Of a stretch of DNA of 64,000 nucleotides, positions 5,579-49,367 are shown in pieces. Below the pieces are notes generated by a model. It was given only the letters and a program-made list of their open reading frames with translations. It was not told where the DNA came from and did no database searches. Source of the DNA: a phage. Where the stretch lies: assembly GCA_012225525.1 (NCBI GenBank), contig GCA_012225525.1_3923.1, one strand, 5' to 3'. A program made the translations under genes and the position numbers. Each line of letters starts with the position of its first letter. Position 1 is the first letter of the stretch.

Positions 5579-7813
5579 ATGATTAAGACAATTAAAAAAT
5601 CAAACGGTACAGTAGTAAGCTTTGACCCAGAAAGACTGAATAAATGGGCATCATGGGCAGATAAGCGTGGAATTATCTGGTCAGAAGTCACTATGGAAGC
5701 TATGAAACGTGTCTATGAAGGTTGCACCACAAAAGAGATGCACCAAGCCATGATTGATGTTTGTGTTGATAAACAAACTCAAGAGTACTCAGATATGGCT
5801 GGACGACTGCTTTTGGGTATTATCTACAAAGAAGCCTTTGGAGGCTTTACTAAGGTTCCTACGCTGGTTACCTTCGTTAAAAATATGGAGAGAGCAGGAC
5901 TTTGGGAGAAGATGGACTATTCTCAGGAAGAGCTTGAATACCTGCAAGGGTACATTGTGCACTCAAAAGATATCTCTTATGGTTATGCAGTCCTGAAACA
6001 GTTCAGAGACAAGTATGGTATCCGTGATATTAAAACGGGAAGACTTTTTGAGTCACCACAATTTATGTTTATGGGTATGGCTATGAAAGCCTTTGAGAAG
6101 CAACCAAAGCACCGTAGACTACAAGATGTTATCAAGCTGTACACTTACCTATCTGACCTGAAGATTAACGCTCCTACTCCTTACCTGAATGGTTTAAGAG
6201 CCACTAAATCAGGTTATGCGTCATGCTGTTTGATTAAGGCGAATGATACCGCTGAATCTCTCGGTATTGCTGCAAAGGTTGCTTATGATATGACTACAAA
6301 GCAAGCTGGTATCGGGATGCTGATGGAGACTCGCACTATTGGTGATGGTATCCGTCAAAATACTATTGAACACATGGGTAAGCTACCTTATTACAAGCTT
6401 GTACGTTCATCTGTAGAGGCAAACAAACAGAAGAGTCGTGGTGGTTCAGCTAACAACTTCTATACTGCTCTAGACCCGCAGATTGAAGATTTACTGCGTT
6501 TGAAGCACCCTACAACGGTTCCTTCGAAACGTATTAACGAGATGGACTACTCATTTGGTACAAATGATTATTTCTGGCAGTGTGTTCAATATGATACAGA
6601 CTGGTTGCTATTCTCTTACAAGGATGCACCAAAACTCTATGACATGTTCTACACAGCATCTGCTGATGAGTTTGCTATGGCAGTTGGTCACGCAGTCCAT
6701 TCAGGTGTTAAGCACAGACGAGTAAAGGCTCGTGAAATTGCTAAACTGTTTATCCAGCAGCGTTATGCAACAGGCCGTGTGTACCCATTCTTCACGAATA
6801 ATGCAAACACACATACGCCATTTAAAGAACCTTTGAAGATGTCAAATCTTTGTATGGAAATTGTGTTGCCAGTGTACGGCTTTGAGAAAGAGACAGACCT
6901 TTACAGAGATGATGCTGTGAAAGAGGATGGTGAGGTAGCTCTTTGCTTCCTAGCTAGTTTGGTTGCAGGGAGAATTTCAGAAGATGAATACGCTGACGTT
7001 GCTTATTATGCTCTTGCAATGGTTGACTCCGTTATTGACCTTATGGATTATCCGTATCCGTCGATGCGTAACCATGTTCAGAAGCGTCGTTCTGTTGGTA
7101 TTGGCCTTACAAATGTGGCTCATTACCTTGCAAAAAACTACGTGAACTACTCTTCAAGAGCAGGTAAGACGAAGCTTCATGAGCTTGCTGAAATGCACTC
7201 TTACTACTTACACGAAGCTTCTTTAAGACTTGCTAAAGAACGTGGTGTACCTGAGTATATGCAGTTCACTAAGTATCCTGAAGGCTGGGTTCCTCCAAAG
7301 ACAGCTAACAAGAAGATTGATGAGAAGCATGATGCAAAACTTCGTTATGATTGGGATGACTTAGCACAACGTATTAAAGAAAATGGTGGAATCCGTAACT
7401 CTGTATTAGAGGCTTACATGCCTAATGAGAGTTCTTCACTGGCAACTAATACGACAAACGGCTTGTACCCAATTCGTGACTTTATTTTAACTAAAAAGTC
7501 TGCAACTGGTAACGTACTGTTTATTGTTCCAGATTACGAAGAGTTGAAGTATGTCTATGAAATTGCTTGGGATATTGACACCTTTGACCTGATTGATTGT
7601 TATGCAATTGTTCAAAAGTTCACTGGTCAAGCTATCTCTTCAGATTTCTATGTTGACTACGCAAAAGCTAAGAAGGTATCATTGGCTCAAGCTTTGAAGT
7701 ACATGATTTATGCTAACTCAGTAGGTATGAAAACTATGTACTACCTTAACAGTCGCATTGGTGTAGGTAAATCTGCACTGCAAGATGCTTATTGCGAGGG
7801 TTGTGGTGTTTAG
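5579..7813 (+). CDS. nrdA: ribonucleoside-diphosphate reductase large subunit (class I RNR alpha)
   Basis: 744 aa; ATP-cone-like N-terminus; followed by NrdB and redoxin genes. Confidence 0.9.
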   Translation: MIKTIKKSNGTVVSFDPERLNKWASWADKRGIIWSEVTMEAMKRVYEGCTTKEMHQAMIDVCVDKQTQEYSDMAGRLLLGIIYKEAFGGFTKVPTLVTFVKNMERAGLWEKMDYSQEELEYLQGYIVHSKDISYGYAVLKQFRDKYGIRDIKTGRLFESPQFMFMGMAMKAFEKQPKHRRLQDVIKLYTYLSDLKINAPTPYLNGLRATKSGYASCCLIKANDTAESLGIAAKVAYDMTTKQAGIGMLMETRTIGDGIRQNTIEHMGKLPYYKLVRSSVEANKQKSRGGSANNFYTALDPQIEDLLRLKHPTTVPSKRINEMDYSFGTNDYFWQCVQYDTDWLLFSYKDAPKLYDMFYTASADEFAMAVGHAVHSGVKHRRVKAREIAKLFIQQRYATGRVYPFFTNNANTHTPFKEPLKMSNLCMEIVLPVYGFEKETDLYRDDAVKEDGEVALCFLASLVAGRISEDEYADVAYYALAMVDSVIDLMDYPYPSMRNHVQKRRSVGIGLTNVAHYLAKNYVNYSSRAGKTKLHELAEMHSYYLHEASLRLAKERGVPEYMQFTKYPEGWVPPKTANKKIDEKHDAKLRYDWDDLAQRIKENGGIRNSVLEAYMPNESSSLATNTTNGLYPIRDFILTKKSATGNVLFIVPDYEELKYVYEIAWDIDTFDLIDCYAIVQKFTGQAISSDFYVDYAKAKKVSLAQALKYMIYANSVGMKTMYYLNSRIGVGKSALQDAYCEGCGV

Positions 7814-42630: not shown

Positions 42631-44046
42631 ATGAGCGAATTATTTAAACATGCGCACCTTCATGCAGGTCGAACTGAAAATGGTGCTGTAAACCATACTT
42701 CATCAATGTCTACTCTTGTAGACTTTTACAAAGCTGCTGGTTCAAGCCGTAGCAATGTAGAAATCTTACCAGACTTGTTCTACAAAGCTTTGCGTGAGGA
42801 TGTTGATGTTGCAGTTCGTATTTTACTGCATATGCGAGATGTACGAGAAGGCATGGGTGAGCGTAAAGCCTTCAGAACTGTTTTGCTTCAAGCGATTGAA
42901 GATGAAGTTTTAGAGCCTACGCAGGTTCTTCGCATTATGGATAAGATTGCAGAACTTGGTCGTTTTGATGACTTCAAAATCTTTGTAGGTACTCGTTTCG
43001 AGACAGATGCCTTCAAGCATTTAGAAGCAGCATTACTAGACCCTGCAACAGCAGGTTTGGCGGCTAAGTGGTTACCACGAGTCAAACCACGTCATAAGCA
43101 GTTTGTAAAACGTTTCTGCAAGTTTGCCAACTTGAGTGAGAAAGAGTACCGCACACTGTTGTCTGCACTATCTGATACAGTTGAGCAAAAAATCTCTGCT
43201 AATGAGTTTGGTAAGATTGACTACAGTAAGATTCCTTCACTTGCTGCTGCACGTTACCAAAAACTGTTTAACCGTAAAGATGGAGAGCGTTACAAAGCTT
43301 ACATCGAGTCCTTATCAAAAGGTGAGACTAAGATTAACGCTGGTGCTGTTTACCCATACGATGTGATTAAATCTTTCAAGTATGGTAATGCAGATGTTGC
43401 TAATGAGCAGTGGAAAGCACTACCAAACTGGATGGCAGAAGGTGAAAACATCTTGTGTATGTCTGATGTATCAAGTTCAATGTCTTGGGTGAATTTTGGC
43501 TCCATTACTGCTCTGGATATTGGTGTATCACTTGCCTTGTATGTAGCAGAACGCAATACAGGTTGCTTTAAGAATGAGTTGATGGTTTATTCGACAAACC
43601 CTCACTTCATCGAACTGAGTGGTGATTTACGAAACCGTCATCGTCAGGTGATGCGACACGTTGAATATGGCTCAACTAACTTACAAGCAGCTTTTGACCG
43701 CATTCTTGAAACAGGTAAAAGAAACAACTTGACTCAGAAAGATATGCCAAGTAAGCTTATCATCTTCTCCGATATGGAGTTCAATCAGGTTGATGGAGCT
43801 AACGGTCGTACAAACTTTGAAGCAATTCAGAGTAAGTACAAAAAAGCTGGATATGAGATGCCACAACTGGTATTCTGGTACTTAGCAAACCGTAATGGTA
43901 CTTGCGAAGTATCTGTTAAGGATAACGGTGTAGCAATGGTATCAGGGTTCTCTCCAGCCACTTTAAAAGCTCTGCTTGGTGGTGAGAAGTTTGACCCAAT
44001 CAGTGTAATGCTCAAAGCAGTAATGATTGACCGTTATATCTGGTAA
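42631..44046 (+). CDS. von Willebrand factor A (vWA) domain protein with MIDAS motif
   Basis: DVSSSMS (DxSxS) MIDAS motif about residue 280; 471 aa; sits immediately upstream of the tRNA array. Confidence 0.5.
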   Translation: MSELFKHAHLHAGRTENGAVNHTSSMSTLVDFYKAAGSSRSNVEILPDLFYKALREDVDVAVRILLHMRDVREGMGERKAFRTVLLQAIEDEVLEPTQVLRIMDKIAELGRFDDFKIFVGTRFETDAFKHLEAALLDPATAGLAAKWLPRVKPRHKQFVKRFCKFANLSEKEYRTLLSALSDTVEQKISANEFGKIDYSKIPSLAAARYQKLFNRKDGERYKAYIESLSKGETKINAGAVYPYDVIKSFKYGNADVANEQWKALPNWMAEGENILCMSDVSSSMSWVNFGSITALDIGVSLALYVAERNTGCFKNELMVYSTNPHFIELSGDLRNRHRQVMRHVEYGSTNLQAAFDRILETGKRNNLTQKDMPSKLIIFSDMEFNQVDGANGRTNFEAIQSKYKKAGYEMPQLVFWYLANRNGTCEVSVKDNGVAMVSGFSPATLKALLGGEKFDPISVMLKAVMIDRYIW

Positions 44047-44064: not shown

Positions 44065-44093
44065 TTGACAATGTGTTTAATACCCTTTAATAT
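44065..44093 (+). promoter_or_regulatory. sigma70-like promoter for tRNA array, -35 inside hairpin
   Basis: TTGACA-17-TAATAT; flanking inverted repeat AAGGGTATT/AATACCCTT. Confidence 0.5.
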
Positions 44094-44211
44094 GTTCTAC
44101 ATAGAAACGAAATGAGAGCTTTTCTAAGATACTGAAAAATATTTTAAAAAAGTTCTTGACAACCACTAAAAAATAATGTTAAAGTGGTTACATAGAGTTT
44201 GAAAAGTTTAT

Positions 44212-44288
44212 CTCTGTTTAGCTCAGCTTGGTAGAGCGTTCCGTTTGGGGCGGTAAGGCCGGAGGTTCAAGTCCTCCAACAGAGACCA
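44212..44288 (+). tRNA. tRNA-Pro (anticodon TGG)
   Basis: Manual cloverleaf; T-arm GGAGG-TTCAAGT-CCTCC; CCA encoded. Confidence 0.7.
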
Positions 44289-44295
44289 AATTAAT

Positions 44296-44373
44296 GTTCC
44301 AGTAGACAAAATGGTAAAGTCACCACTCTTTCAAAGTGGATATCTGAGGGTTCAAATCCCTTCTGGAACGCCA
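44296..44373 (+). tRNA. tRNA-Glu (anticodon TTC)
   Basis: Acceptor GTTCCAG/CTGGAAC; anticodon loop CTTTCAA. Confidence 0.7.
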
Positions 44374-44463
44374 GTTTTGACAGAAGACCAATTACAGCAA
44401 ACTTAATCTACTCATCTGAAAGTTAATCGGACAAAGAAGATATTTGGTCTGGTCATTAAGAAT

Positions 44464-44540
44464 TGCGGGTATAGAGAAAGGGCGTCTCACATGTCTCATT
44501 AGCATGGTATCGGCAGGTTCGACTCCTGCACCCGCCTCCA
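44464..44540 (+). tRNA. tRNA-like element, anticodon arm unresolved
   Basis: Perfect T-arm GCAGG-TTCGACT-CCTGC and CCA end; internal GTCTCA duplication. Confidence 0.3.
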
Positions 44541-44623
44541 AATTTACAGAAGACCGTTTACAGCAATATTTATTAAATTTTTAGCGGAAAAATTGAAAGA
44601 TACGGTCTGGTAATACTAAACAT

Positions 44624-44700
44624 GGTTAGGAAGCACATAAGGTATGTGCGGTCGCCTGTTAAGCGAATGGCACAGGGTTCGAATCCCTGACTAACCGCCA
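44624..44700 (+). tRNA. tRNA-Asn (anticodon GTT)
   Basis: Anticodon loop CTGTTAA; T-arm CAGGG-TTCGAAT-CCCTG. Confidence 0.7.
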
Positions 44701-44769
44701 AATTTAGGAGAGAAGCGATTGCTCACCGATTTGTAAGGTGCAAGTCCTTAGCCTGAATAGAAATCAAAT

Positions 44770-44857
44770 GTGTCGTTATCCCGTAGATGGTAGCGGTGGG
44801 GACTGTAAATCCCTTGTCATTGAGACTCGGTAGGTTCGACTCCTACACGGCACACCA
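44770..44857 (+). tRNA. tRNA-Tyr (anticodon GTA), long variable arm
   Basis: Anticodon loop CTGTAAA; 88 nt. Confidence 0.7.
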
Positions 44858-44863
44858 AATAAA

Positions 44864-44941
44864 GGTTATGTAGTTTAATCTGGTTAAAATACTCCCCTGT
44901 CACGGGAGATGATGAGGGTTCAAATCCCTTCATAACCGCCA
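44864..44941 (+). tRNA. tRNA-Asp (anticodon GTC)
   Basis: Acceptor GGTTATG/CATAACC; anticodon stem-loop CTCCC-CTGTCAC-GGGAG. Confidence 0.75.
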
Positions 44942-45370
44942 ATTTTGAGAGGGCTATTTAGCCCCTCCCTTAAAGAGTTCTTACGAGTATTCTTTAAAGG
45001 AGCAGAAGACCAAATACAGCAAGAATGTATGAAATTTCAAGCCAATTCAATTTTGAAAATTTAAAACTTGGTCTGGCTCAACAAATTTACAGAAGACCGT
45101 TTACAGCAAAACTTAAACAATCTATTTCTCCGGTAAAGAAAAGGCGAAGGTTCGATTCCTTCACTCGGCAGATGTCGAGTTGGTGTAATGGTAGCACTTA
45201 AGATGATAAACAACGGTCTGGTAATTATCTTTGTAGATAAGTTATTAAGCTTACCTGTGAGTATGCGACCACAAAGGGTGAAAGGGTAAATTCTAGATTT
45301 AAACCCAAAAAGGCACATCGCTACAGACCTTAAGCAAGTCTGGGTAGCTTATCTACAAAGATAATTTAAT

Positions 45371-45446
45371 GGAAGTGTAGCAGAATGGTGATGCGGCAGA
45401 CTTTTAATCTGACAGGCGATGGGTTCGAATCCCTCCACTTCTACCA
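45371..45446 (+). tRNA. tRNA-Lys (anticodon TTT)
   Basis: Anticodon loop CTTTTAA; T-loop TTCGAAT. Confidence 0.65.
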
Positions 45447-45524
45447 AATTCACCCTTAACTGAGAAACACCTGCGCGGCTGGAAACACCCACTCAACAGT
45501 TTCTCTAACTAGGGTACTTATTCT

Positions 45525-45601
45525 GGTTCAGTCGCAGATAAGGTAATGCAAGGGTCTCATAAGCCCTATGAATGTGGGTTCGATTCCCATCTGAACCTCC
45601 A
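45525..45601 (+). tRNA. tRNA-Met or Ile2 (anticodon CAT)
   Basis: Acceptor GGTTCAG/CTGAACC; anticodon loop CTCATAA. Confidence 0.7.
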
Positions 45602-45602
45602 A

Positions 45603-45678
45603 GCTGGTATAGTTAAGAAGGTTATAACACTCCCCTGATAAGGGAACATCGGTGGTTCGATTCCACCTACCAGTACCA
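45603..45678 (+). tRNA. tRNA-Ile (anticodon GAT)
   Basis: Anticodon loop CTGATAA; T-arm GGTGG-TTCGATT-CCACC. Confidence 0.7.
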
Positions 45679-45693
45679 ATTTCAATAAAGTTG

Positions 45694-45722
45694 TTGACAT
45701 TGAGATGTGACTACTTTATAGT
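45694..45722 (+). promoter_or_regulatory. sigma70-like promoter inside tRNA array
   Basis: TTGACA-17-TATAGT. Confidence 0.5.
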
Positions 45723-45924
45723 AACCTTAGTTTTCGTTGCGTAGCGTCTATTTTGCAAATTTAAAATAAATGCAAACGACAATGTTTTTCTGGCAGTAGC
45801 TTGATAGGCTAAACACCAGTGAGGTCTTCCAATCCCTCATCAAAGAATTTGGCGTACTCGCCCACGGTATGATTAATAAGGTGGGCATCTTTAAGGGCTT
45901 TCTAAGAGAGTCTTTAAAGATAAT

Positions 45925-46001
45925 GCACCCTTAGTTCAATTGGATAGAGCAACGGTCTTCTAAATCGTTAGTTACAGGTTCGAATCCTGTAGGGTGTACC
46001 A
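45925..46001 (+). tRNA. tRNA-Arg (anticodon TCT)
   Basis: Anticodon loop CTTCTAA; T-arm ACAGG-TTCGAAT-CCTGT. Confidence 0.7.
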
Positions 46002-46143
46002 AATAGTTAGCAGATTACTTAGACGGCCTTAGCGGGTCTTCCTGTAGGGAGGTGGTCTGTATCTCATGTTTTCCAGAACATGTAAATAATCTGAGAAGAA
46101 GCTTGACAGTGTTGAGATAACAGGGTAAGCTTCGAATTATAAT

Positions 46144-46226
46144 ATGGGACGATGTTAAGACTCTAAGGCATGAGCAACGGCCTCCAAAACCGTTTCAAAG
46201 GGGTTCAACTCCTCCGTCCCATGCCA
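46144..46226 (+). tRNA. tRNA, probably Trp (anticodon CCA), atypically long D region
   Basis: Perfect acceptor ATGGGAC/GTCCCAT, CCA end, candidate loop CTCCAAA; 83 nt. Confidence 0.4.
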
Positions 46227-46239
46227 AAGTCTTATTAGG

Positions 46240-46327
46240 GGTAGGTAGCGGCTAATGGCAGCCAAACAGTCTTGAAAACTGTTGCCACTGTAGAGATACG
46301 GTGAGGGTTCGACTCCTTTACTTACCG
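46240..46327 (+). tRNA. tRNA-Ser (anticodon TGA), long variable arm
   Basis: Anticodon stem-loop ACAGT-CTTGAAA-ACTGT. Confidence 0.7.
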
Positions 46328-46483
46328 CCTAATAAGATTTACTCCGTCCATGCTTGTTCGCATTGTCGGTTTATCCCTCGTGTATTGTCGTACACTGTCA
46401 AAGCACCTAGTAGGTGTCACGGAGAAGAGATAATATCAAGCTCTCCAAAGGTTCTAGTCACCGGATTAAACAAGACTATGCAA

Positions 46484-46503
46484 AGACCTATTTAGGTCTT
46501 TTT
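46484..46503 (+). terminator. intrinsic terminator within tRNA region
   Basis: AGACCT-ATTT-AGGTCT followed by TTTT. Confidence 0.5.
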
Positions 46504-46582
46504 AGAGGGCTTCTAAGGTTATTACAGCTTGTTGTGGAACCTTGTTGCTTAGGTTCTTAGAAGTTCTCTAAAAAGATTTAAT

Positions 46583-46660
46583 GGGAGATTGACGGTAATT
46601 GGTAAACCTACCATCCTTAGAAGTTGGTGTTTGAGGGTTCGAATCCCTTGTCTCCCACCA
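46583..46660 (+). tRNA. tRNA with anticodon TAG (Leu-type) but short variable loop
   Basis: Anticodon loop CTTAGAA; discriminator A; 5-nt variable loop. Confidence 0.55.
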
Positions 46661-46667
46661 AATTAAT

Positions 46668-46743
46668 GCAGGTGTAGCAAAATGGTTATGCGGCTGACTC
46701 TTAATCAGTAAGACGATGGGTTCAATTCCCTCCACCTGTACCA
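46668..46743 (+). tRNA. tRNA-Lys (anticodon CTT)
   Basis: Anticodon loop CTCTTAA. Confidence 0.65.
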
Positions 46744-46749
46744 AACAAT

Positions 46750-46825
46750 GGGGTCATAGTTTATATGGTTAAAATTCGAGTTTTGCAAACTTGGGAACTG
46801 AGTTCAATTCTCAGTGACTCCACCA
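46750..46825 (+). tRNA. tRNA-Ala (anticodon TGC)
   Basis: Anticodon loop TTTGCAA; T-arm CTGAG-TTCAATT-CTCAG. Confidence 0.7.
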
Positions 46826-46831
46826 ATTAGT

Positions 46832-46906
46832 GCATCCATAGTTTAAACGGGAAAATTACAGTCTTCCAAACTGAGGTTGAGGGTTCGATTCCCTCTGGAT
46901 GCTCCA
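46832..46906 (+). tRNA. tRNA-Gly (anticodon TCC)
   Basis: Acceptor GCATCCA/TGGATGC; anticodon loop CTTCCAA. Confidence 0.7.
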
Positions 46907-46913
46907 AATTAAT

Positions 46914-46989
46914 GCTCCTATCGTATAATTGGCTATTACGGTTGCCTTGTAAGTAACTTATCAGGGTTCGAATCCTTGTGGGAGCACCA
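46914..46989 (+). tRNA. tRNA-Thr (anticodon TGT)
   Basis: Anticodon stem-loop GTTGC-CTTGTAA-GTAAC. Confidence 0.7.
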
Positions 46990-47085
46990 ATTTAGAGGTC
47001 AAGTGAAAGACCGCTTTGAGTCAACTGAAGACCGTAACAAATCCCACGGAGTTGAGTTAGCGGAACAACTTCAGACCTCTTTCAT
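46990..47085 (+). ncRNA. candidate structured spacer RNA
   Basis: Closing inverted repeat AGAGGTC...GACCTCT enclosing TGAAGACCGTAACAAATCC. Confidence 0.3.
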
Positions 47086-47160
47086 ACTCGCTTAGTTTAT
47101 ATGGTAAAACATCACCCTTACAAGATGAAGAAAAAGGTTCAAGTCCTTTAGTGAGTACCA
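47086..47160 (+). tRNA. tRNA-Val (anticodon TAC)
   Basis: Anticodon loop CTTACAA; T-arm AAAGG-TTCAAGT-CCTTT. Confidence 0.6.
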
Positions 47161-47161
47161 T

Positions 47162-47239
47162 GTTCCAGTATCCCAATTGGCAGAGGATGCAAGCTCAAAC
47201 CTTGTACTAGTGACGGTTCGAATCCGTCTTGGAACACCA
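47162..47239 (+). tRNA. tRNA with anticodon CAA (Leu-type) but short variable loop
   Basis: Anticodon stem-loop GCAAG-CTCAAAC-CTTGT; 6-nt variable loop; discriminator A. Confidence 0.55.
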
Positions 47240-47255
47240 ATTTTAGGAGAACACT

Positions 47256-47363
47256 ATGAGTAATAAATCAATTGCAAAAAAGTTTATAGCGTCATTCAAA
47301 AACAGGCGTAAAAACAACTCTTGTGAAAAACTGTATGGTGTTCTTGTAGGTAAGCAGGATTAG
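47256..47363 (+). CDS. very small ORF (35 aa) with strong RBS inside tRNA array
   Basis: TAGGAGAACACTATG; stop overlaps 5' end of the next tRNA. Confidence 0.2.
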   Translation: MSNKSIAKKFIASFKNRRKNNSCEKLYGVLVGKQD

Positions 47364-47429
47364 TTCAAATGGATAGAGCAACAGTCTACGAAGCTGTTAA
47401 TAGGGGTTCGAATCCCTTATCCTGCGCCA
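47354..47429 (+). tRNA. tRNA-Arg (anticodon ACG)
   Basis: Perfect acceptor GCAGGAT/ATCCTGC; anticodon loop CTACGAA. Confidence 0.7.
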
Positions 47430-47448
47430 ATTTAAAGAGGCTATTTAA

Positions 47449-48006
47449 ATGAGATACTTGAAGTATGCTTCATGGATTTTCTTAGCTTTGCTAGAGCCAT
47501 TGGCAGCAATCTTAGCAGTTATCTTAGCACCTTTTGTAGTTCCATTTTACAGTGAGAAGAAAGGACACTTACCTTTTGGATTCAGATGGATGGAGACATA
47601 TGACAACCCGATTGATGGTGATGAAGGTCACGTTAAAAGATGGGCTAAGATTAGAAAGATTGGTAAGCTTGGTGTCTATTTGCAGAGAGTTGGATGGCTC
47701 TGGAGAAACAAAGCTTATAACTTCTCTTACCATGTGTTAGGAAGAGATGTAAAAGATGTTACTAAGTGGAAAGGCAATATCAACGTAAGTTCTGACCCTG
47801 AAGATAATCAGACAGGTTATCTCCTAATGTGGAACAGTAATGCTTGGGGATTATTCGCTTTTATCCCATCAATTAAAGTCTTTGGTAAACAATTCTACTG
47901 GAGAATTTATGTTGGATGGAAGCTAAAAAGTGTTGTCCCAGAAGAAAGAGCATTCTCAAGGGAAAGAGTTATGTTGGCATTCTTTATTCATCCACTGAGA
48001 AAGTAA
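47449..48006 (+). CDS. membrane protein embedded in tRNA array
   Basis: 185 aa; N-terminal hydrophobic segments. Confidence 0.5.
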   Translation: MRYLKYASWIFLALLEPLAAILAVILAPFVVPFYSEKKGHLPFGFRWMETYDNPIDGDEGHVKRWAKIRKIGKLGVYLQRVGWLWRNKAYNFSYHVLGRDVKDVTKWKGNINVSSDPEDNQTGYLLMWNSNAWGLFAFIPSIKVFGKQFYWRIYVGWKLKSVVPEERAFSRERVMLAFFIHPLRK

Positions 48007-48014
48007 AGATTTAA

Positions 48015-48090
48015 AGGGGATTAGTTTACAAGGTTAAAACCTCGGTCTTTGAAATCGAAGAAGTTGGTTCAATTCCAACATCCCCCGCCA
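48015..48090 (+). tRNA. tRNA-Gln (anticodon TTG)
   Basis: Anticodon stem-loop TCGGT-CTTTGAA-ATCGA; T-arm GTTGG-TTCAATT-CCAAC. Confidence 0.65.
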
Positions 48091-48092
48091 AT

Positions 48093-48171
48093 GCTCCATT
48101 ACTCCAATTGGCAGAGAGGCCAGACTTAAAATCTGTGTTATGTATCGGTTCGAATCCGATATGGAGTACCA
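48093..48171 (+). tRNA. tRNA with anticodon TAA (Leu-type) but short variable loop
   Basis: Anticodon loop CTTAAAA; 7-nt variable loop; discriminator A. Confidence 0.55.
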
Positions 48172-48176
48172 AATTT

Positions 48177-48252
48177 AGCGGTATAGCATAACTGGCAATG
48201 CAGCAGTCTCTGAAGCTGTCTTATTAAGGTTCAAATCCTTATGCCGCTGCCA
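48177..48252 (+). tRNA. tRNA-Gln (anticodon CTG)
   Basis: Anticodon loop CTCTGAA; T-arm TAAGG-TTCAAAT-CCTTA. Confidence 0.65.
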
Positions 48253-48283
48253 CTTCTAAGGATTCTTACGAGAGTCCTTAAAT

Positions 48284-48359
48284 GTGGCCTTATCATAAAT
48301 GGTAATGACCCATGCTGTGAACATGGTCTATACGGGTTCAAATCCCGTAGGTCACCCCA
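48284..48359 (+). tRNA. tRNA-His (anticodon GTG)
   Basis: Anticodon stem-loop CCATG-CTGTGAA-CATGG. Confidence 0.7.
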
Positions 48360-48364
48360 ATTTA

Positions 48365-48439
48365 TAGTCCAAGTAGCTTATATGGTTAAAGCGCGTGTCT
48401 GAAAAACATGAGAAGAGGGTTCAAATCCCACTGGACTAC
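48365..48439 (+). tRNA. tRNA-Phe (anticodon GAA), CCA not encoded
   Basis: Acceptor TAGTCCA/TGGACTA; anticodon loop CTGAAAA. Confidence 0.65.
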
Positions 48440-48457
48440 CAATTTCAAAGGTGCTTA

Positions 48458-49192
48458 ATGAAAGAGATGACAGAACAAGGTAAGGAGATTTTTAATCTCT
48501 TAAAAACTGGTAAAGGGTTTTCTAACCCCCTTATTACTGGTGCAGCAGTTCTCGGTGGAACCGTAGCTGCCTCTACATCACTTGTAAGCTCTATTAGTTC
48601 TGTATCAGACCCTACAGTAAAGGATAAGCTTGTTGCTGCTGGACTTACAACAGTTCTGCTTAACAGCTTTACCACGAGTCTGACAAGCACTACATCAACT
48701 ACCAAAACACTGACAGATTACGGTCAAAAGTCCATTGATGAGTTTTCATCACGTATGCAGGTAGCAAAAGGTTATTCTAATGTTATGGGTGCAGCAGGTG
48801 AACAAGTTGGCTGTACACCATTTAGTGGTATTATGGGTGTTGCTACAGAGTATGGTCAAAAAGCTATTGATATGATTAACAGTGCACTAGACGGTGTTAA
48901 TGATGTATTAAGTGACTTACAAGACGCTATTGACAAAGGTCTTGATACTATTTCTGATTTAGCTAACCAAGCTGTTAGTAAGATTAATGAAGGTATCTCG
49001 AAGATTACAGCTTATGCAGATGAAGTTGTGCAGATGATTGAAGAAGAAGCTGCCCTTATTGCAGAGTACCTTAAAACGAATATCAATGGGTTCTTAGCAG
49101 GTATCTTACCAGACTGGTTTGATGATGCTTGTAAAACTGGTGTAATTGACACTATTGCAACACCAGAAATGAAGAACGCATTACAGAAATAA
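48458..49192 (+). CDS. Ser/Thr-rich hypothetical protein
   Basis: ATG 48458 after AAAGG; track start 48395 lies inside tRNA-Phe. Confidence 0.5.
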   Translation: MKEMTEQGKEIFNLLKTGKGFSNPLITGAAVLGGTVAASTSLVSSISSVSDPTVKDKLVAAGLTTVLLNSFTTSLTSTTSTTKTLTDYGQKSIDEFSSRMQVAKGYSNVMGAAGEQVGCTPFSGIMGVATEYGQKAIDMINSALDGVNDVLSDLQDAIDKGLDTISDLANQAVSKINEGISKITAYADEVVQMIEEEAALIAEYLKTNINGFLAGILPDWFDDACKTGVIDTIATPEMKNALQK

Positions 49193-49194
49193 AT

Positions 49195-49287
49195 GGAAGA
49201 TTAACCCTAAAAGGTAAGGGAGCAGTTTGCTAAACTGCCAGTAGCTGAGAAATCGGTGTACCAGTTCAAGTCTGGTATCTTCCTCCA
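49195..49287 (+). tRNA. tRNA-Ser (anticodon GCT), long variable arm
   Basis: Perfect acceptor GGAAGAT/ATCTTCC; anticodon stem-loop GCAGT-TTGCTAA-ACTGC. Confidence 0.75.
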
Positions 49288-49291
49288 ATTT

Positions 49292-49367
49292 GAATCCGTG
49301 ACAGAAATGGCTATGTGCCTGTCTGCAAAACAGGTTTATAAGGGTTCGAGTCCCTTCGGATTCTCCA
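49292..49367 (+). tRNA. tRNA-Cys (anticodon GCA)
   Basis: Perfect acceptor GAATCCG/CGGATTC; anticodon stem-loop CCTGT-CTGCAAA-ACAGG. Confidence 0.75.

What the first reader, a model, noticed from the sequence alone, without database searches (positions are those of the whole stretch)
45125..45370. tRNA-half-like fragments in inverted order (possible permuted or degenerate tRNA)
At 45139-45170 there is a canonical T-arm (GAAGG-TTCGATT-CCTTC) followed by ACTCGGC, but no matching 5' acceptor strand upstream. Instead, 5 nt downstream lies GTCGAGT-TG-GTGTAATGGTAGCAC, which looks like a tRNA 5' acceptor strand plus D-arm and pairs perfectly with the upstream ACTCGGC. So 3'-half-like sequence precedes 5'-half-like sequence. 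This could be a degenerate tRNA remnant, a permuted tRNA gene, or part of a larger structured RNA.
Basis: seen in the sequence. Interest (0 to 1): 0.5.

Follow-up and report, generated by a model that had tools for sequence, protein, structure and literature searches.

The report
Phage Y RNA with tRNA-like domain
The "inverted tRNA halves" are real, but they are most likely not a broken or permuted tRNA gene: they look like the tRNA-mimicking domain of a small Y RNA, which a Felix-O1-type phage encodes next to its Ro60-like protein, and which is not annotated as a Y RNA in the phage records inspected.

Summary
On the + strand a canonical T arm (45146-45162) runs into ACTCGGC. Four bases later comes GTCGAGT, which pairs with it over 7 bp (one G-U), then UG and a D arm (45183-45197).

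ARAGORN and Rfam call no tRNA here. The order T arm, closed acceptor-like hairpin, D arm, enclosed by a 5'/3' helix, is the architecture of bacterial YrlA Y RNAs.

The window is a Felixounavirus. The gene 1 kb upstream on the same strand (42631-44046, Pfam DUF2828+DUF7788) gives an AlphaFold model whose 12 best PDB matches are all Ro60/TROVE. It is 34% identical to mycobacteriophage "Ro-like RNA binding proteins".

The acceptor-like helix covaries among Ounavirinae. A covariance model finds 43 related units next to homologous genes in 29 of 79 sources, all on the gene's strand.

All units share a "handle": a helix followed by UUACAGCAA. The window holds four handles, and only this one carries the tRNA-like payload.

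The anticodon-like loop varies in length and sequence, so a decoding permuted tRNA is unlikely. RNase P cleavage into a two-piece RNA is predicted from the M. smegmatis precedent, not shown.

Verdict: new member of a known kind. The handle also weakly resembles Dictyostelium Class I RNAs, which is untested.

The parts
42631..44046 (+). Gene for the Ro60-like protein (471 aa), the presumed protein partner of the RNA
   Evidence: Pfam DUF2828 (1e-28) plus DUF7788 (2e-43). The AF2 model has pLDDT 86.9 and pTM 0.87. The Foldseek top 12 PDB hits are all Ro60/TROVE, full length, E 8e-9 to 7e-7, TM 0.47-0.66. It is 34% identical over 98% of its length to mycobacteriophage 'Ro-like RNA binding protein'. 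The Felixounavirus Bas63 gp130, described in the same genomic position, was noted as Ro60-like in PMC11482910; orthology with the window's gene is inferred from that position, not aligned here.
44065..44185 (+). Two sigma-70-like promoter matches upstream of the tRNA/Y-RNA array (44065-44093 and 44156-44185)
   Evidence: Matches of 10/12 each. The next strong match is at 45694, and no + strand terminator-like site lies between them. These are consensus matches only.
44377..44458 (+). Handle module A without tRNA-like payload (inner helix 44385-44391 / 44444-44450; motif TTACAGCAA 44392-44400)
   Evidence: Model R1 scores 35.9 bits, E 7e-4. Rfam Dicty_Class_I_RNA aligns at 44386-44451, 17.8 bits.
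44543..44616 (+). Handle module B without tRNA-like payload (inner helix 44551-44557 / 44602-44608; motif 44558-44566)
   Evidence: R1 scores 39.1 bits, E 1.7e-4. Rfam Dicty_Class_I_RNA aligns at 44552-44609, 20.1 bits.
45000..45079 (+). Handle module C without tRNA-like payload (outer helix GAGC/GCTC, inner helix AGACCAA 45007-45013 / TTGGTCT 45068-45074, motif ATACAGCAA 45014-45022)
   Evidence: Read from the sequence. Invariant across 7 Ounavirinae. RNAfold's MFE does not draw this helix, so the assignment rests on analogy with the other three modules.
45086..45227 (+). The YrlA-like Y RNA that contains the finding
   Evidence: R1 scores 106.9 bits (a seed member). The MFE fold shows the outer helix, inner helix and four-way junction.
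45094..45109 (+). Handle, 5' side: inner-helix strand AGACCGT (45094-45100) followed by the conserved motif TTACAGCAA (45101-45109)
   Evidence: T, C, G, C and A of the motif are invariant in alignment A3.
45125..45141 (+). V hairpin TTTCT-CCGGTAA-AGAAA (looks like an anticodon arm; corresponds in position to the V stem-loop of YrlA)
   Evidence: Loop length and sequence vary among orthologues.
45146..45162 (+). T arm GAAGG-TTCGATT-CCTTC
   Evidence: Invariant in Ounavirinae. GGTTC.A..CC is invariant in A3.
45163..45180 (+). Closed acceptor-like hairpin: ACTCGGC / loop AGAT / GTCGAGT. Predicted RNase P site between 45173 and 45174
   Evidence: Three covarying versions occur in Ounavirinae: ACTCGGC/GTCGAGT, ACACGTT/GGCGTGT and ACCCTTC/GAAGGGT. 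All 7 pairs show two-sided changes in A4. Cleavage is inferred from M. smegmatis YrlA (PMC4201824).
45181..45197 (+). U8-G9 linker and D arm GTGT-AATGGTA-GCAC
   Evidence: The equivalents of U8, G10, A14, G18/19 and A21 are invariant in A3.
45213..45224 (+). Handle, 3' side: ACGGTCT (45213-45219), bulged G 45220, outer-helix strand GTAA (45221-45224) pairing with TTAC at 45087-45090
   Evidence: The outer helix covaries among the window's modules: TTAC/GTAA, TGAC/GTCA, GAGC/GCTC.
45222..45368 (+). Long conserved hairpin (about 24-bp stem enclosing three small hairpins) between the Y RNA and tRNA-Lys. Role unknown; possibly an RNase III-type processing site
   Evidence: fold. One search shows compensatory changes at 4 stem pairs in Ounavirinae. 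The function is a guess.

Best explanation
The element is the effector (tRNA-like) domain of a phage-encoded Y RNA of the YrlA type.

Shown:
- The RNA at 45086-45227 has a handle and a payload. The handle is an outer helix, a bulge and a 7-bp inner helix (AGACCGU/ACGGUCU), directly followed by single-stranded UUACAGCAA.
- The payload has a V hairpin, a T arm, a 7-bp acceptor-like hairpin closed by AGAU, and a D arm. The conserved tRNA elbow nucleotides are present.
- It lies 1 kb downstream of a Ro60-like gene, on the same strand.
- The same handle with tRNA-like or other payloads recurs next to homologous genes in many unrelated phages.

Inferred:
- The RNA is transcribed with the tRNA array from the promoters at about 44065 and 44156, and cut out by the tRNA-processing nucleases that release tRNA-Asp and tRNA-Lys.
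- The handle is bound by the phage Ro60-like protein. This would be analogous to Ro60 binding the terminal stem of Y RNAs.
- The tRNA-like domain folds into an L shape and recruits or occupies host tRNA-recognising factors.
- Because the acceptor-like stem has 7 bp stacked on a T arm, RNase P probably cuts 5' of G45174. The 3' side would then be trimmed and receive CCA, giving a two-piece RNA held together by the acceptor helix and the handle. M. smegmatis YrlA behaves this way.

The biological role is likely tethering or gating the Ro60-like protein during infection. The Ro60-like gp130 of the Felixounavirus Bas63 is reported to counter the Ppl defence system.
For: Architecture.

Orthologue covariation, unbiased by any model: acceptor-helix pairs change on both sides among Felixouna-, Moogle- and Suspviruses.

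Protein partner: DUF2828+DUF7788. The AF2 model's 12 best PDB hits are all Ro60/TROVE, including Thermus phage phiLo Ro60. It is homologous to mycobacteriophage Ro-like proteins.

Family-wide association:
- The strict scanner gave 18 hits on the + strand, 0 on the - strand and 0 in shuffles.
- All 13 units carry a helix next to a CAGCAA-like motif, against about 11% of shuffled flanks.
- Model R1 gave 43 hits at E<0.01 in 864 kb, all on the gene's strand and most within 400 nt of the gene.
- In the fitted alignment 96.5% of cells pair, against about 40% when partners are slid, and 21 of 23 pairs show two-sided changes.
- Independent lineages match too: mycobacteriophage Lewan 65.9 bits, 94 nt after its Ro-like gene with no tRNA genes nearby; Bacillus phage Tsamsa 64.8 bits; Staphylococcus phage SEP9 has a bare handle after the gene.

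Link to YrlA: a family member (L037 7707-7815) matches Rfam YrlA RF02553 over the full model at 40.9 bits, E 1.5e-7.

[quoted passage not shown] The PhageMaP authors suspected that Y RNAs hide among the Bas63 'tRNAs' (PMC11482910).

Processing hint: N-CCA begins the acceptor-hairpin loop in 5 of 21 units with a 7-bp stem. My own binomial estimate gives p about 2e-5.
Against: - No expression, binding or cleavage data exist for this RNA.
- The window's own unit gets no Rfam YrlA hit at E<=10, and relatives stay below the gathering score of 69 bits.
- The YrlA Ro-binding motif GNCGAAN0-1G is not in the handle. It is replaced by UUACAGCAA.
- The protein has no sequence-level TROVE match.
- Six tRNA genes lie between the protein gene and this RNA. 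In many phages the gene sits beside tRNA arrays, which partly confounds the association.
- Only 29 of the 79 sources searched gave a hit at E<0.01.
- Two natural isolates (ESCO45, SP116) have deletions removing part of the unit, so it is dispensable for plaque formation.
Confidence: 0.8

Rival explanations
1. It is a genuinely permuted or split tRNA-Thr(GGU) gene. The 3' part (anticodon arm, T arm, 3' acceptor) and the 5' part (5' acceptor, D arm) are joined or held together after processing, and the product decodes ACC/ACU.
For: In Moogle- and Suspviruses the loop reads CUGGUAA, a canonical Y32-U33-GGU-A37 anticodon loop on a 5-bp stem, with a 4-nt variable loop. The acceptor stem has 7 bp, and Mordin encodes G-CCA after it. 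tRNAscan-SE called a 129-nt 'tRNA-Thr-GGT' here in the phage ASO1B record. The array has Thr only as TGT.
Against: The loop is 6 nt (CGGUAA) in several Felixounaviruses and has C33 in the window. It reads CUAUAAA or CUAUGAA in ESh21-type phages, and no comparable anticodon-arm-like hairpin is evident at that position in the Mordin group. The break would lie at position 26, between long single-stranded linkers of 24 and 15 nt that carry a conserved non-tRNA motif. No bulge-helix-bulge motif stood out on reading the flanks, though no dedicated search was run. From general knowledge, E. coli has no tRNA splicing endonuclease. Related units in other phages have no anticodon-like hairpin at all.
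Confidence: 0.05
2. It is a non-functional remnant of rearranged or tandemly duplicated tRNA genes in a recombination-prone tRNA array.
For: The array is mosaic. HNH endonuclease insertions and deletions occur nearby in relatives. A tandem tRNA duplication followed by loss of the outer halves would give this order, and it may well be the evolutionary origin.
Against: The unit is 95-100% conserved in more than 200 records and about 80% in other genera, with compensatory changes that keep the acceptor helix. The flanking handle is conserved more strongly than the neighbouring tRNA spacers. The same composite architecture occurs in Actinobacteria, Firmicutes and marine phages.
Confidence: 0.05
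3. It is a structured RNA of the tRNA array that works independently of the Ro60-like protein. Examples would be a processing platform for RNase P, RNase E or RNase III, or a tRNA decoy that soaks up host tRNA-targeting defence nucleases.
For: It is embedded among tRNA genes and flanked by a long RNase III-like hairpin. A 7-bp acceptor on a T arm is a minimal RNase P substrate (general knowledge). The Ro60-like gene is usually next to tRNA arrays, so linkage with tRNAs and linkage with the protein are hard to separate.
Against: In mycobacteriophage Lewan, Staphylococcus phage SEP9 and several metagenomic contigs the units sit directly beside the Ro60-like gene, with no or few tRNA genes around. 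The conserved handle with bare payloads has no obvious role in tRNA processing.
Confidence: 0.1

Closest known systems
YrlA Y RNAs (Rfam RF02553; Chen et al. 2014, PMC4201824; Wang et al. 2018, bioRxiv 10.1101/312249), especially M. smegmatis YrlA and the mycobacteriophage versions
   Same: The order V stem-loop, T arm, acceptor-like stem-loop, D arm, enclosed by a 5'/3' stem. Conserved tRNA elbow nucleotides. Encoded within 4 kb of a Ro60-type protein gene and on the same strand. A 7-bp acceptor-like stem as in M. smegmatis YrlA, which RNase P cuts and which receives CCA. A related phage unit matches RF02553 at E 1.5e-7.
   Different: The handle carries UUACAGCAA after the 5' strand instead of GNCGAAN0-1G inside it. 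The score is below Rfam's gathering threshold, and the window's own unit gets no hit. The partner protein falls in Pfam DUF2828 and is not detected as TROVE by sequence. The RNA is embedded in a tRNA array, with three further handle-only modules alongside.
Dictyostelid Class I RNAs (Rfam RF01414; Kjellin et al. 2021, PMC7919456)
   Same: A short stem joining the 5' and 3' ends, directly followed on the 5' side by (CC)UUACAGCAA. A variable interior. The 3' strand is followed by CUG. The bare modules are about 60 nt long. Rfam's model aligns exactly to the module boundaries.
   Different: Scores are only 12.8-26.8 bits against a gathering score of 41.5. Class I RNAs are eukaryotic Pol III-type genes with a DUSE promoter, and were reported as unique to Dictyostelia. 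Their known direct binder is the RRM protein Rnp1A, not a Ro60-like protein. Homology versus coincidence is untested.
Circularly permuted tRNA genes of Cyanidioschyzon merolae and other algae (from general knowledge)
   Same: The 3' part of a tRNA is encoded upstream of the 5' part on one strand, with a short linker between the acceptor strands.
   Different: Those yield decoding tRNAs through a circular intermediate made by the eukaryotic or archaeal splicing endonuclease and ligase, and their anticodon loops are conserved. Here the anticodon-like loop is not conserved, and the open ends carry a protein-binding handle.
Two-piece (permuted) tmRNA (Rfam RF04321 and related families)
   Same: A permuted gene order, with T arm and 3' acceptor before 5' acceptor. 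The mature RNA is in two pieces after the loop is excised.
   Different: There is no tag reading frame conserved among orthologues. Position 3:70 is C-G, not G-U. A full D stem is present. ARAGORN and Rfam tmRNA models are negative.

Membership tests
YrlA-type Y RNA | Encoded within about 4 kb of a Ro60 orthologue, on the same strand | tested here: met
   The RNA starts 1040 nt downstream of the gene at 42631-44046, on the same strand. The Ro60 relationship rests on structure and on homology to mycobacteriophage Ro-like proteins.
YrlA-type Y RNA | T-arm-like and D-arm-like stem-loops with conserved tRNA nucleotides, separated by an acceptor-like (AS) stem-loop | tested here: met
   The invariant columns of A3 correspond to U8, G10, A14, G18/19, A21, G53 and T54-Psi55-C56, A58 and C61. 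AS covariation is shown.
YrlA-type Y RNA | 5' and 3' ends pair to form the stem of the Ro60-binding module | tested here: met
   Inner helix 45094-45100 / 45213-45219 plus an outer helix. All 7 pairs show two-sided changes across the family.
YrlA-type Y RNA | GNCGAAN0-1G motif near the 5' end | tested here: not met
   The handle carries UUACAGCAA instead. The Rfam YrlA consensus has cggCgaAUG in the 5' strand, and the phage handle is not aligned to it. A GGCGAAG lies just before the T stem (45142-45148), but it is not conserved in phiSUSP1, ESh21 or Mordin.
YrlA-type Y RNA | Scores at or above the Rfam RF02553 gathering threshold (69 bits) | tested here: not met
   The window unit gets no hit at E<=10. 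Relatives score 40.9, 25.8 and 21.1 bits. No hit at gathering score in 13 loci.
YrlA-type Y RNA | Bound by the Ro60 protein; carries tRNA modifications (Psi55, D); cut by RNase P where the AS has 7 bp | not testable with these tools
   This needs RIP or EMSA, primer extension, and M1 RNA cleavage assays.
Ro60 / TROVE protein (for the neighbouring gene) | HEAT-repeat ring (TROVE) followed by a vWA domain | tested here: met
   AF2 model with pLDDT 86.9. Full-length Foldseek matches to 9kop, 2i91, 2nvo, 9l5y and 1yvp, with TM up to 0.66.
Ro60 / TROVE protein (for the neighbouring gene) | Sequence match to Pfam TROVE or to solved Ro60 chains | tested here: not met
   Pfam lists only DUF2828 and DUF7788 at E<=0.01. 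phmmer against PDB gives nothing relevant at E<=10.
Permuted tRNA gene (decoding) | 3' half upstream of 5' half, with complementary acceptor strands | tested here: met
Permuted tRNA gene (decoding) | A 7-nt anticodon loop and an anticodon conserved among orthologues | tested here: not met
   The loop is 6 or 7 nt and occurs in five different sequences; no comparable hairpin is evident in the Mordin group.
Permuted tRNA gene (decoding) | Bulge-helix-bulge at the precursor ends, and a splicing endonuclease and ligase in the host | tested here: inconclusive
   The flanks form a plain helix with a one-sided bulge, and no dedicated BHB search was run. That E. coli lacks the endonuclease is general knowledge, not tested here.
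Two-piece tmRNA | Detected by tmRNA models; tag ORF; G3-U70 | tested here: not met
   ARAGORN and Rfam are negative. Position 3:70 is C-G. The ATG at 45204 is absent in orthologues.
Dictyostelid Class I RNA | A roughly 6-bp terminal stem, the 11-nt motif CCUUACAGCAA after the 5' strand, and a 3' CUGU | tested here: inconclusive
   The stem is 7 bp, the motif matches 9 of 11 (UUACAGCAA), and the 3' end reads CUGG or CUGA. Features are cited from PMC7919456.
Dictyostelid Class I RNA | Scores at or above the Rfam RF01414 gathering threshold (41.5 bits) | tested here: not met
   12.8, 17.8 and 20.1 bits in the window; 26.3 and 26.8 bits in L037.

The most novel reading that the evidence does not exclude
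The helix-UUACAGCAA-...-helix-CUG handle may be the recognition element of DUF2828-type Ro60 paralogues in general. The Class I RNAs of dictyostelid amoebae have the same stem, the same motif and the same 3' CUG, and have been regarded as an orphan class unique to Dictyostelia. They could then be Y RNAs of this kind. That would link an unexplained abundant eukaryotic ncRNA class to a Ro60-like RNP that is widespread in phages. A second, smaller novel reading concerns lineages that encode N-CCA in the acceptor loop. There the RNase P-processed two-piece RNA may expose a genuine CCA end and could be aminoacylated.
Probability: 0.15. Interest if true: 0.8.

Novelty: new member of a known kind. 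Interest (0 to 1): 0.55.

Why it matters
Felix O1-type phages are classic typing and therapy phages, and hundreds of their genomes are sequenced. This 140-nt RNA and its three sister modules are not labelled as Y RNAs in any of the records I inspected. There they are left unannotated, overlaid with 'hypothetical protein' ORFs, or called an odd tRNA-Thr.

Pinning down the Y RNAs gives concrete candidates for something the PhageMaP authors only suspected for the Ro60-like anti-defence protein gp130 of Bas63, namely RNA partners. That makes the mechanism of Ppl evasion directly testable.

The survey also shows that the DUF2828 'Ro-like' proteins of at least 710 phage records come with a shared RNA handle. 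This handle differs from the published YrlA motif, so current models (Rfam RF02553) miss them. The RNAs can carry tRNA-like or other payloads. If the resemblance to Dictyostelium Class I RNAs reflects common ancestry, it would give that orphan RNA class a candidate protein partner.

Tried and rejected
1. Permuted intron-exon (group I) arrangement, with intron halves at 44942-45124 and 45198-45370. Rejected: there is no Rfam Intron_gpI signal even at E<=10, no G precedes the would-be 3' exon, and the flanks resolve into separate handle modules and a hairpin.

2. Two-piece tmRNA. Rejected.

3. Protein-coding reading. The ORFs at 45025-45201 (+) and 45061-45318 (-) are annotated as hypothetical proteins in some records. 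Rejected as spurious: they overlap a conserved structured RNA whose substitutions are compensatory in helices.

4. The idea that the unit supplies the missing tRNA-Trp. The array lacks Trp, but no CCA anticodon is present.

5. Whether the junction next to the tRNA core forms a conserved 'anticodon-stem' helix (AUCU/AGAU or CUUA/UAAG). Undecided: AUCU/AGAU never varies in 6 orthologues and is absent in Mordin, and CUUA/UAAG is not conserved.

6. A test for whether Dictyostelium encodes a DUF2828 or Ro60-like protein, for example DDB_G0281243, a Class I RNA pull-down partner of unknown function. The AFDB Foldseek library was unavailable, the literature search gave nothing, and no eukaryotic genomes are in the collections.

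7. The supplementary phage list of Chen et al. 2014 is not held. Whether any Ounavirinae were in their 22 phages is inferred only from a later summary naming mycobacteriophages, CcrColossus and Bacillus phage G.
Full report
**Observation.** The window's + strand reads GAAGG-TTCGATT-CCTTC (45146-45162), ACTCGGC (45163-45169), AGAT, GTCGAGT (45174-45180), TG, and GTGT-AATGGTA-GCAC (45183-45197). So a T arm and a 3' acceptor strand do precede a 5' acceptor strand and a D arm. The two acceptor strands pair over 7 positions, one of them G-U. Upstream lies TTTCT-CCGGTAA-AGAAA (45125-45141), which looks like an anticodon arm. ARAGORN finds 26 tRNA genes between 44212 and 49367 but nothing between tRNA-Asp (ends 44941) and tRNA-Lys (starts 45371). 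Rfam at gathering thresholds sees only tRNAs in the whole window. Its tRNA model matches the anticodon-like and T arms only partially, at 22-23 bits against 29. A strict pattern scan found this one site in the window. Over related loci it gave 18 hits on the + strand, none on the - strand and none in shuffles. RNAfold draws a four-way junction of V hairpin, T arm, closed acceptor hairpin and D arm, enclosed by a helix.

**Source and conservation.** The 430-nt Asp-Lys spacer matches 252 phage records, all of them Felix-O1-like Ounavirinae once evident mislabels are set aside, and most at 95-100% identity. It is syntenic in Mooglevirus and Suspvirus at about 80%. Aligning seven orthologues shows an invariant T arm and D arm. 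The acceptor-like helix occurs in three mutually compensating versions: ACTCGGC/GTCGAGT, ACACGTT/GGCGTGT and ACCCTTC/GAAGGGT. In the Mordin type the 3' strand is followed by G-CCA. These orthologues were collected by similarity and synteny, not by structure, so this covariation is unbiased. The anticodon-like loop is not conserved. It reads CCGGTAA or 6-nt CGGTAA within Felixounavirus, CTGGTAA in Sf19 and SUSP1, and CTATAAA or CTATGAA in ESh21-like phages. No comparable hairpin is evident in the Mordin group. That argues against a decoding tRNA.

**The lead.** Relatives annotate the gene upstream of the array (window 42631-44046) as 'vWFA protein' or 'RNA-binding protein'. Pfam gives DUF2828 plus DUF7788, and there is no sequence match to PDB chains. 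An AlphaFold model built on 35 homologues has pLDDT 86.9 and pTM 0.87. Its 12 best Foldseek PDB hits are exclusively Ro60/TROVE proteins: Xenopus Ro60, D. radiodurans Rsr and Thermus phage phiLo Ro60. They align over the full length, with E from 8e-9 to 7e-7, and vWA-only hits follow far behind. tblastn finds homologues in 710 phage records. Among them are mycobacteriophage 'Ro-like RNA binding proteins' at 34% identity over 98% of the length.

Ro60 proteins bind Y RNAs. Chen et al. 2014 (PMC4201824) showed that bacterial and phage YrlA Y RNAs consist of a 5'/3' stem plus a tRNA-like module ordered V stem-loop, T arm, acceptor-like stem-loop, D arm. They are encoded within 4 kb of Ro60 on the same strand. 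M. smegmatis YrlA, the one with a 7-bp acceptor-like stem, is cut by RNase P and receives CCA in vivo. That is the layout seen here. For the Felixounavirus Bas63, the PhageMaP preprint noted that gp130 is Ro60-like, lies directly upstream of the tRNAs and counters the Ppl defence. It guessed that 'some tRNA genes are possibly Y RNAs' without identifying them (PMC11482910).

**Family-wide test.** I fetched loci around homologues of the protein. Outside Ounavirinae, the strict scanner found 12 orphan T-AS-D units in 9 loci. All lie on the gene's strand and none overlaps a complete tRNA. Their flanks revealed a shared 'handle'. It is a 6-10-bp helix of variable, complementary sequence whose 5' strand is directly followed by U(U/A)(A/U)C(A/C)GCAA. 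The 3' strand is followed by G(A/G/U)UA. All 13 units have it, against about 11% of shuffled flanks.

A covariance model (R1) built from 16 units found 43 matches at E<0.01 in 864 kb, in 29 of the 79 sources searched. All 43 are on the gene's strand and most lie within 400 nt of the gene. They comprise units with a 7-bp acceptor-like stem, units with a short one (as in Salmonella YrlA), and bare handles of about 75 nt with non-tRNA payloads. In the model-fitted alignment 96.5% of cells pair, against about 40% when partners are slid, and 21 of 23 pairs show two-sided changes. A fitted alignment leans towards its own model, so this is supportive rather than decisive.

Independent lineages agree. 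Mycobacteriophage Lewan has a unit 94 nt after its Ro-like gene, with no tRNA genes annotated within 4 kb (65.9 bits). The same unit is conserved in 42 mycobacteriophage records that include Faith1 and Rumpelstiltskin, and is sometimes mis-annotated as tRNA-Asn. Bacillus phage Tsamsa has a unit inside its tRNA array (64.8 bits), and Staphylococcus phage SEP9 has a bare handle right after the gene. One family member matches Rfam YrlA over the full model at 40.9 bits, E 1.5e-7, below the gathering score of 69. No locus reaches the YrlA gathering score, and the window's own unit gets no YrlA hit.

**Anatomy in the window.** Four handle modules lie in the array. They share the inner helix AGACC(AA/GU)/(UU/AC)GGUCU, the motif (U/A)UACAGCAA, a one-sided bulge (AGA against G), and a 4-bp outer helix that covaries between modules (UUAC/GUAA, UGAC/GUCA, GAGC/GCUC). 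They sit at 44377-44458, 44543-44616, 45000-45079 and 45086-45227. Only the last carries the tRNA-like payload. Sigma-70-like promoters lie at 44065 and 44156, and no + strand terminator-like site follows before 45694, so co-transcription with the tRNAs is plausible (consensus matches only). A conserved, covarying hairpin of about 147 nt (45222-45368) separates the Y RNA from tRNA-Lys.

**Mechanism.** What is shown: the architecture, the covariation, the linkage to a Ro60-like gene, and the recurrence. What is inferred:
- The RNA is released from the array transcript by tRNA-processing enzymes.
- The Ro60-like protein binds the handle.
- The T-loop/D-loop elbow makes an L-shaped tRNA mimic that engages host tRNA-binding factors.
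- RNase P cuts 5' of G45174, and the 3' side is then trimmed and receives CCA. This yields a two-piece RNA, as in M. smegmatis.

One sequence hint supports processing at the loop. The acceptor-hairpin loop begins with N-CCA in 5 of 21 units with a 7-bp stem: Mordin, L099b, two units in L111, and L088. About 0.3 would be expected by chance, and my own binomial estimate is about 2e-5. The biological role is probably tied to the reported anti-Ppl function of gp130, or more generally to RNA surveillance during infection. In Listeria phage cka15 the gene lies near genes annotated 'tRNA splicing ligase' and 'RNA ligase'. That is a single neighbourhood and remains speculative.

**Rivals.** A decoding permuted tRNA-Thr(GGU) is disfavoured by the loop variability and the long motif-bearing linkers at the would-be junction. 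A dead remnant is contradicted by conservation and covariation. A Ro60-independent array element is not excluded, but it is disfavoured by the units that sit beside the gene where no tRNA genes are nearby. A group I permuted intron-exon arrangement and a two-piece tmRNA were examined and rejected.

**Comparison and novelty.** The RNA works like, and most likely is, a YrlA-type Y RNA. [quoted passage not shown] The handle differs, and this fits a protein partner that is too divergent from TROVE to be matched by sequence. Chen et al. already reported YrlA-like RNAs beside mycobacteriophage Ro-like genes, so the kind is known. The Felixounavirus RNA, its sister modules and the shared UUACAGCAA handle are, as far as the searched literature shows, not described. 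I rate it a new member of a known kind.

**An unexpected side observation.** Rfam's Dictyostelium Class I RNA model has the consensus stem-CUUACAGCAA...stem-UG. It aligns exactly to the phage handles: 26.8 and 26.3 bits in L037, and 20.1, 17.8 and 12.8 bits in the window, against a gathering score of 41.5. Class I RNAs are about 60-nt RNAs with a 6-bp terminal stem, the 11-nt motif CCUUACAGCAA and a 3' CUGU. They were reported as unique to Dictyostelia, and one of their pull-down partners (DDB_G0281243) has unknown function (PMC7919456 and bioRxiv 10.1101/2020.04.05.026054). DUF2828 proteins also occur in eukaryotes, since plant papers mention them. I could not test whether dictyostelids have one. 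This may be coincidence in short AU-rich RNAs and is flagged only as a lead.

Noticed in passing
window 44377-44458, 44543-44616, 45000-45079: Three further 'handle' modules lie in spacers of the tRNA array. Each has the AGACC.. helix, UACAGCAA and a GGUCU-G helix, and none has a tRNA-like payload. They are probably additional Y-like RNAs, comparable to YrlB.
   Followed up: partly
window 45095-45220, 44552-44609, 44386-44451; L037 7534-7592 and 7619-7670: Rfam's Dictyostelium Class I RNA model (RF01414, consensus stem-CUUACAGCAA...stem-UG) aligns to the phage handles at their exact boundaries, at sub-threshold scores of 12.8-26.8 bits against a gathering score of 41.5. Class I RNAs were reported as unique to Dictyostelia.
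   Followed up: partly
window 45222-45368: A conserved hairpin of about 147 nt has a roughly 24-bp stem enclosing three small hairpins, with compensatory changes among Ounavirinae. Some Felixounaviruses (pSJ21 group) carry the Mooglevirus-type version, so it behaves as a separate module. It may be an RNase III-type processing site or another ncRNA.
   Followed up: partly
window 44950-45000: Two hairpins are nearly invariant across Ounavirinae genera: GGGCT-ATTT-AGCCC and CTCCCTTAAAGAGTTCTTACGAGTATTCTTTAAAGGAG. They are more conserved than the tRNA-like unit. No T-run follows, so they are not an obvious terminator. Function unknown.
   Followed up: no
L119 1642-1770 (Escherichia phage vB_EcoM_ASO1B); H144/H146 (mycobacteriophages Wilder and Gardann): Annotation pipelines sometimes call these Y-RNA units as tRNAs. 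Examples are a 129-nt 'tRNA-Thr-GGT' in ASO1B and 'tRNA-Asn' in some cluster L-type mycobacteriophages. Synechococcus phage B23 has a 110-nt 'tRNA-Undet' right after its DUF2828 gene (L124 6848-6957), overlapping a weak R1 hit at 6786-6896.
   Followed up: partly
window 45025-45201 (+) and 45061-45318 (-): ORFs of 58 and 85 aa overlap the structured RNA. 'Hypothetical protein' features overlapping this stretch in several GenBank records may correspond to these ORFs, and they are probably spurious gene calls.
   Followed up: no
L033 (phage ESCO45) and L035 (phage SP116): Natural deletion variants exist. ESCO45 lacks tRNA-Asp through the T/acceptor part of the unit. SP116 lacks everything from the T loop through tRNA-Lys. 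The Y RNA is therefore dispensable for propagation in the laboratory.
   Followed up: partly
L065 1293-1616; L060 10696-10922; L122 7810-9021 and 10581-11455: Other RNA-biology features sit near DUF2828 genes in other phages: a permuted tmRNA (Rfam RF04321, 71.7 bits), a group I intron (71.5 bits), and, in Listeria phage cka15, genes annotated 'tRNA splicing ligase' and 'RNA ligase'.
   Followed up: no
window 44212-49367: The 26-tRNA array covers 19 amino acids and lacks tRNA-Trp. Thr is represented only by anticodon TGT.
   Followed up: no
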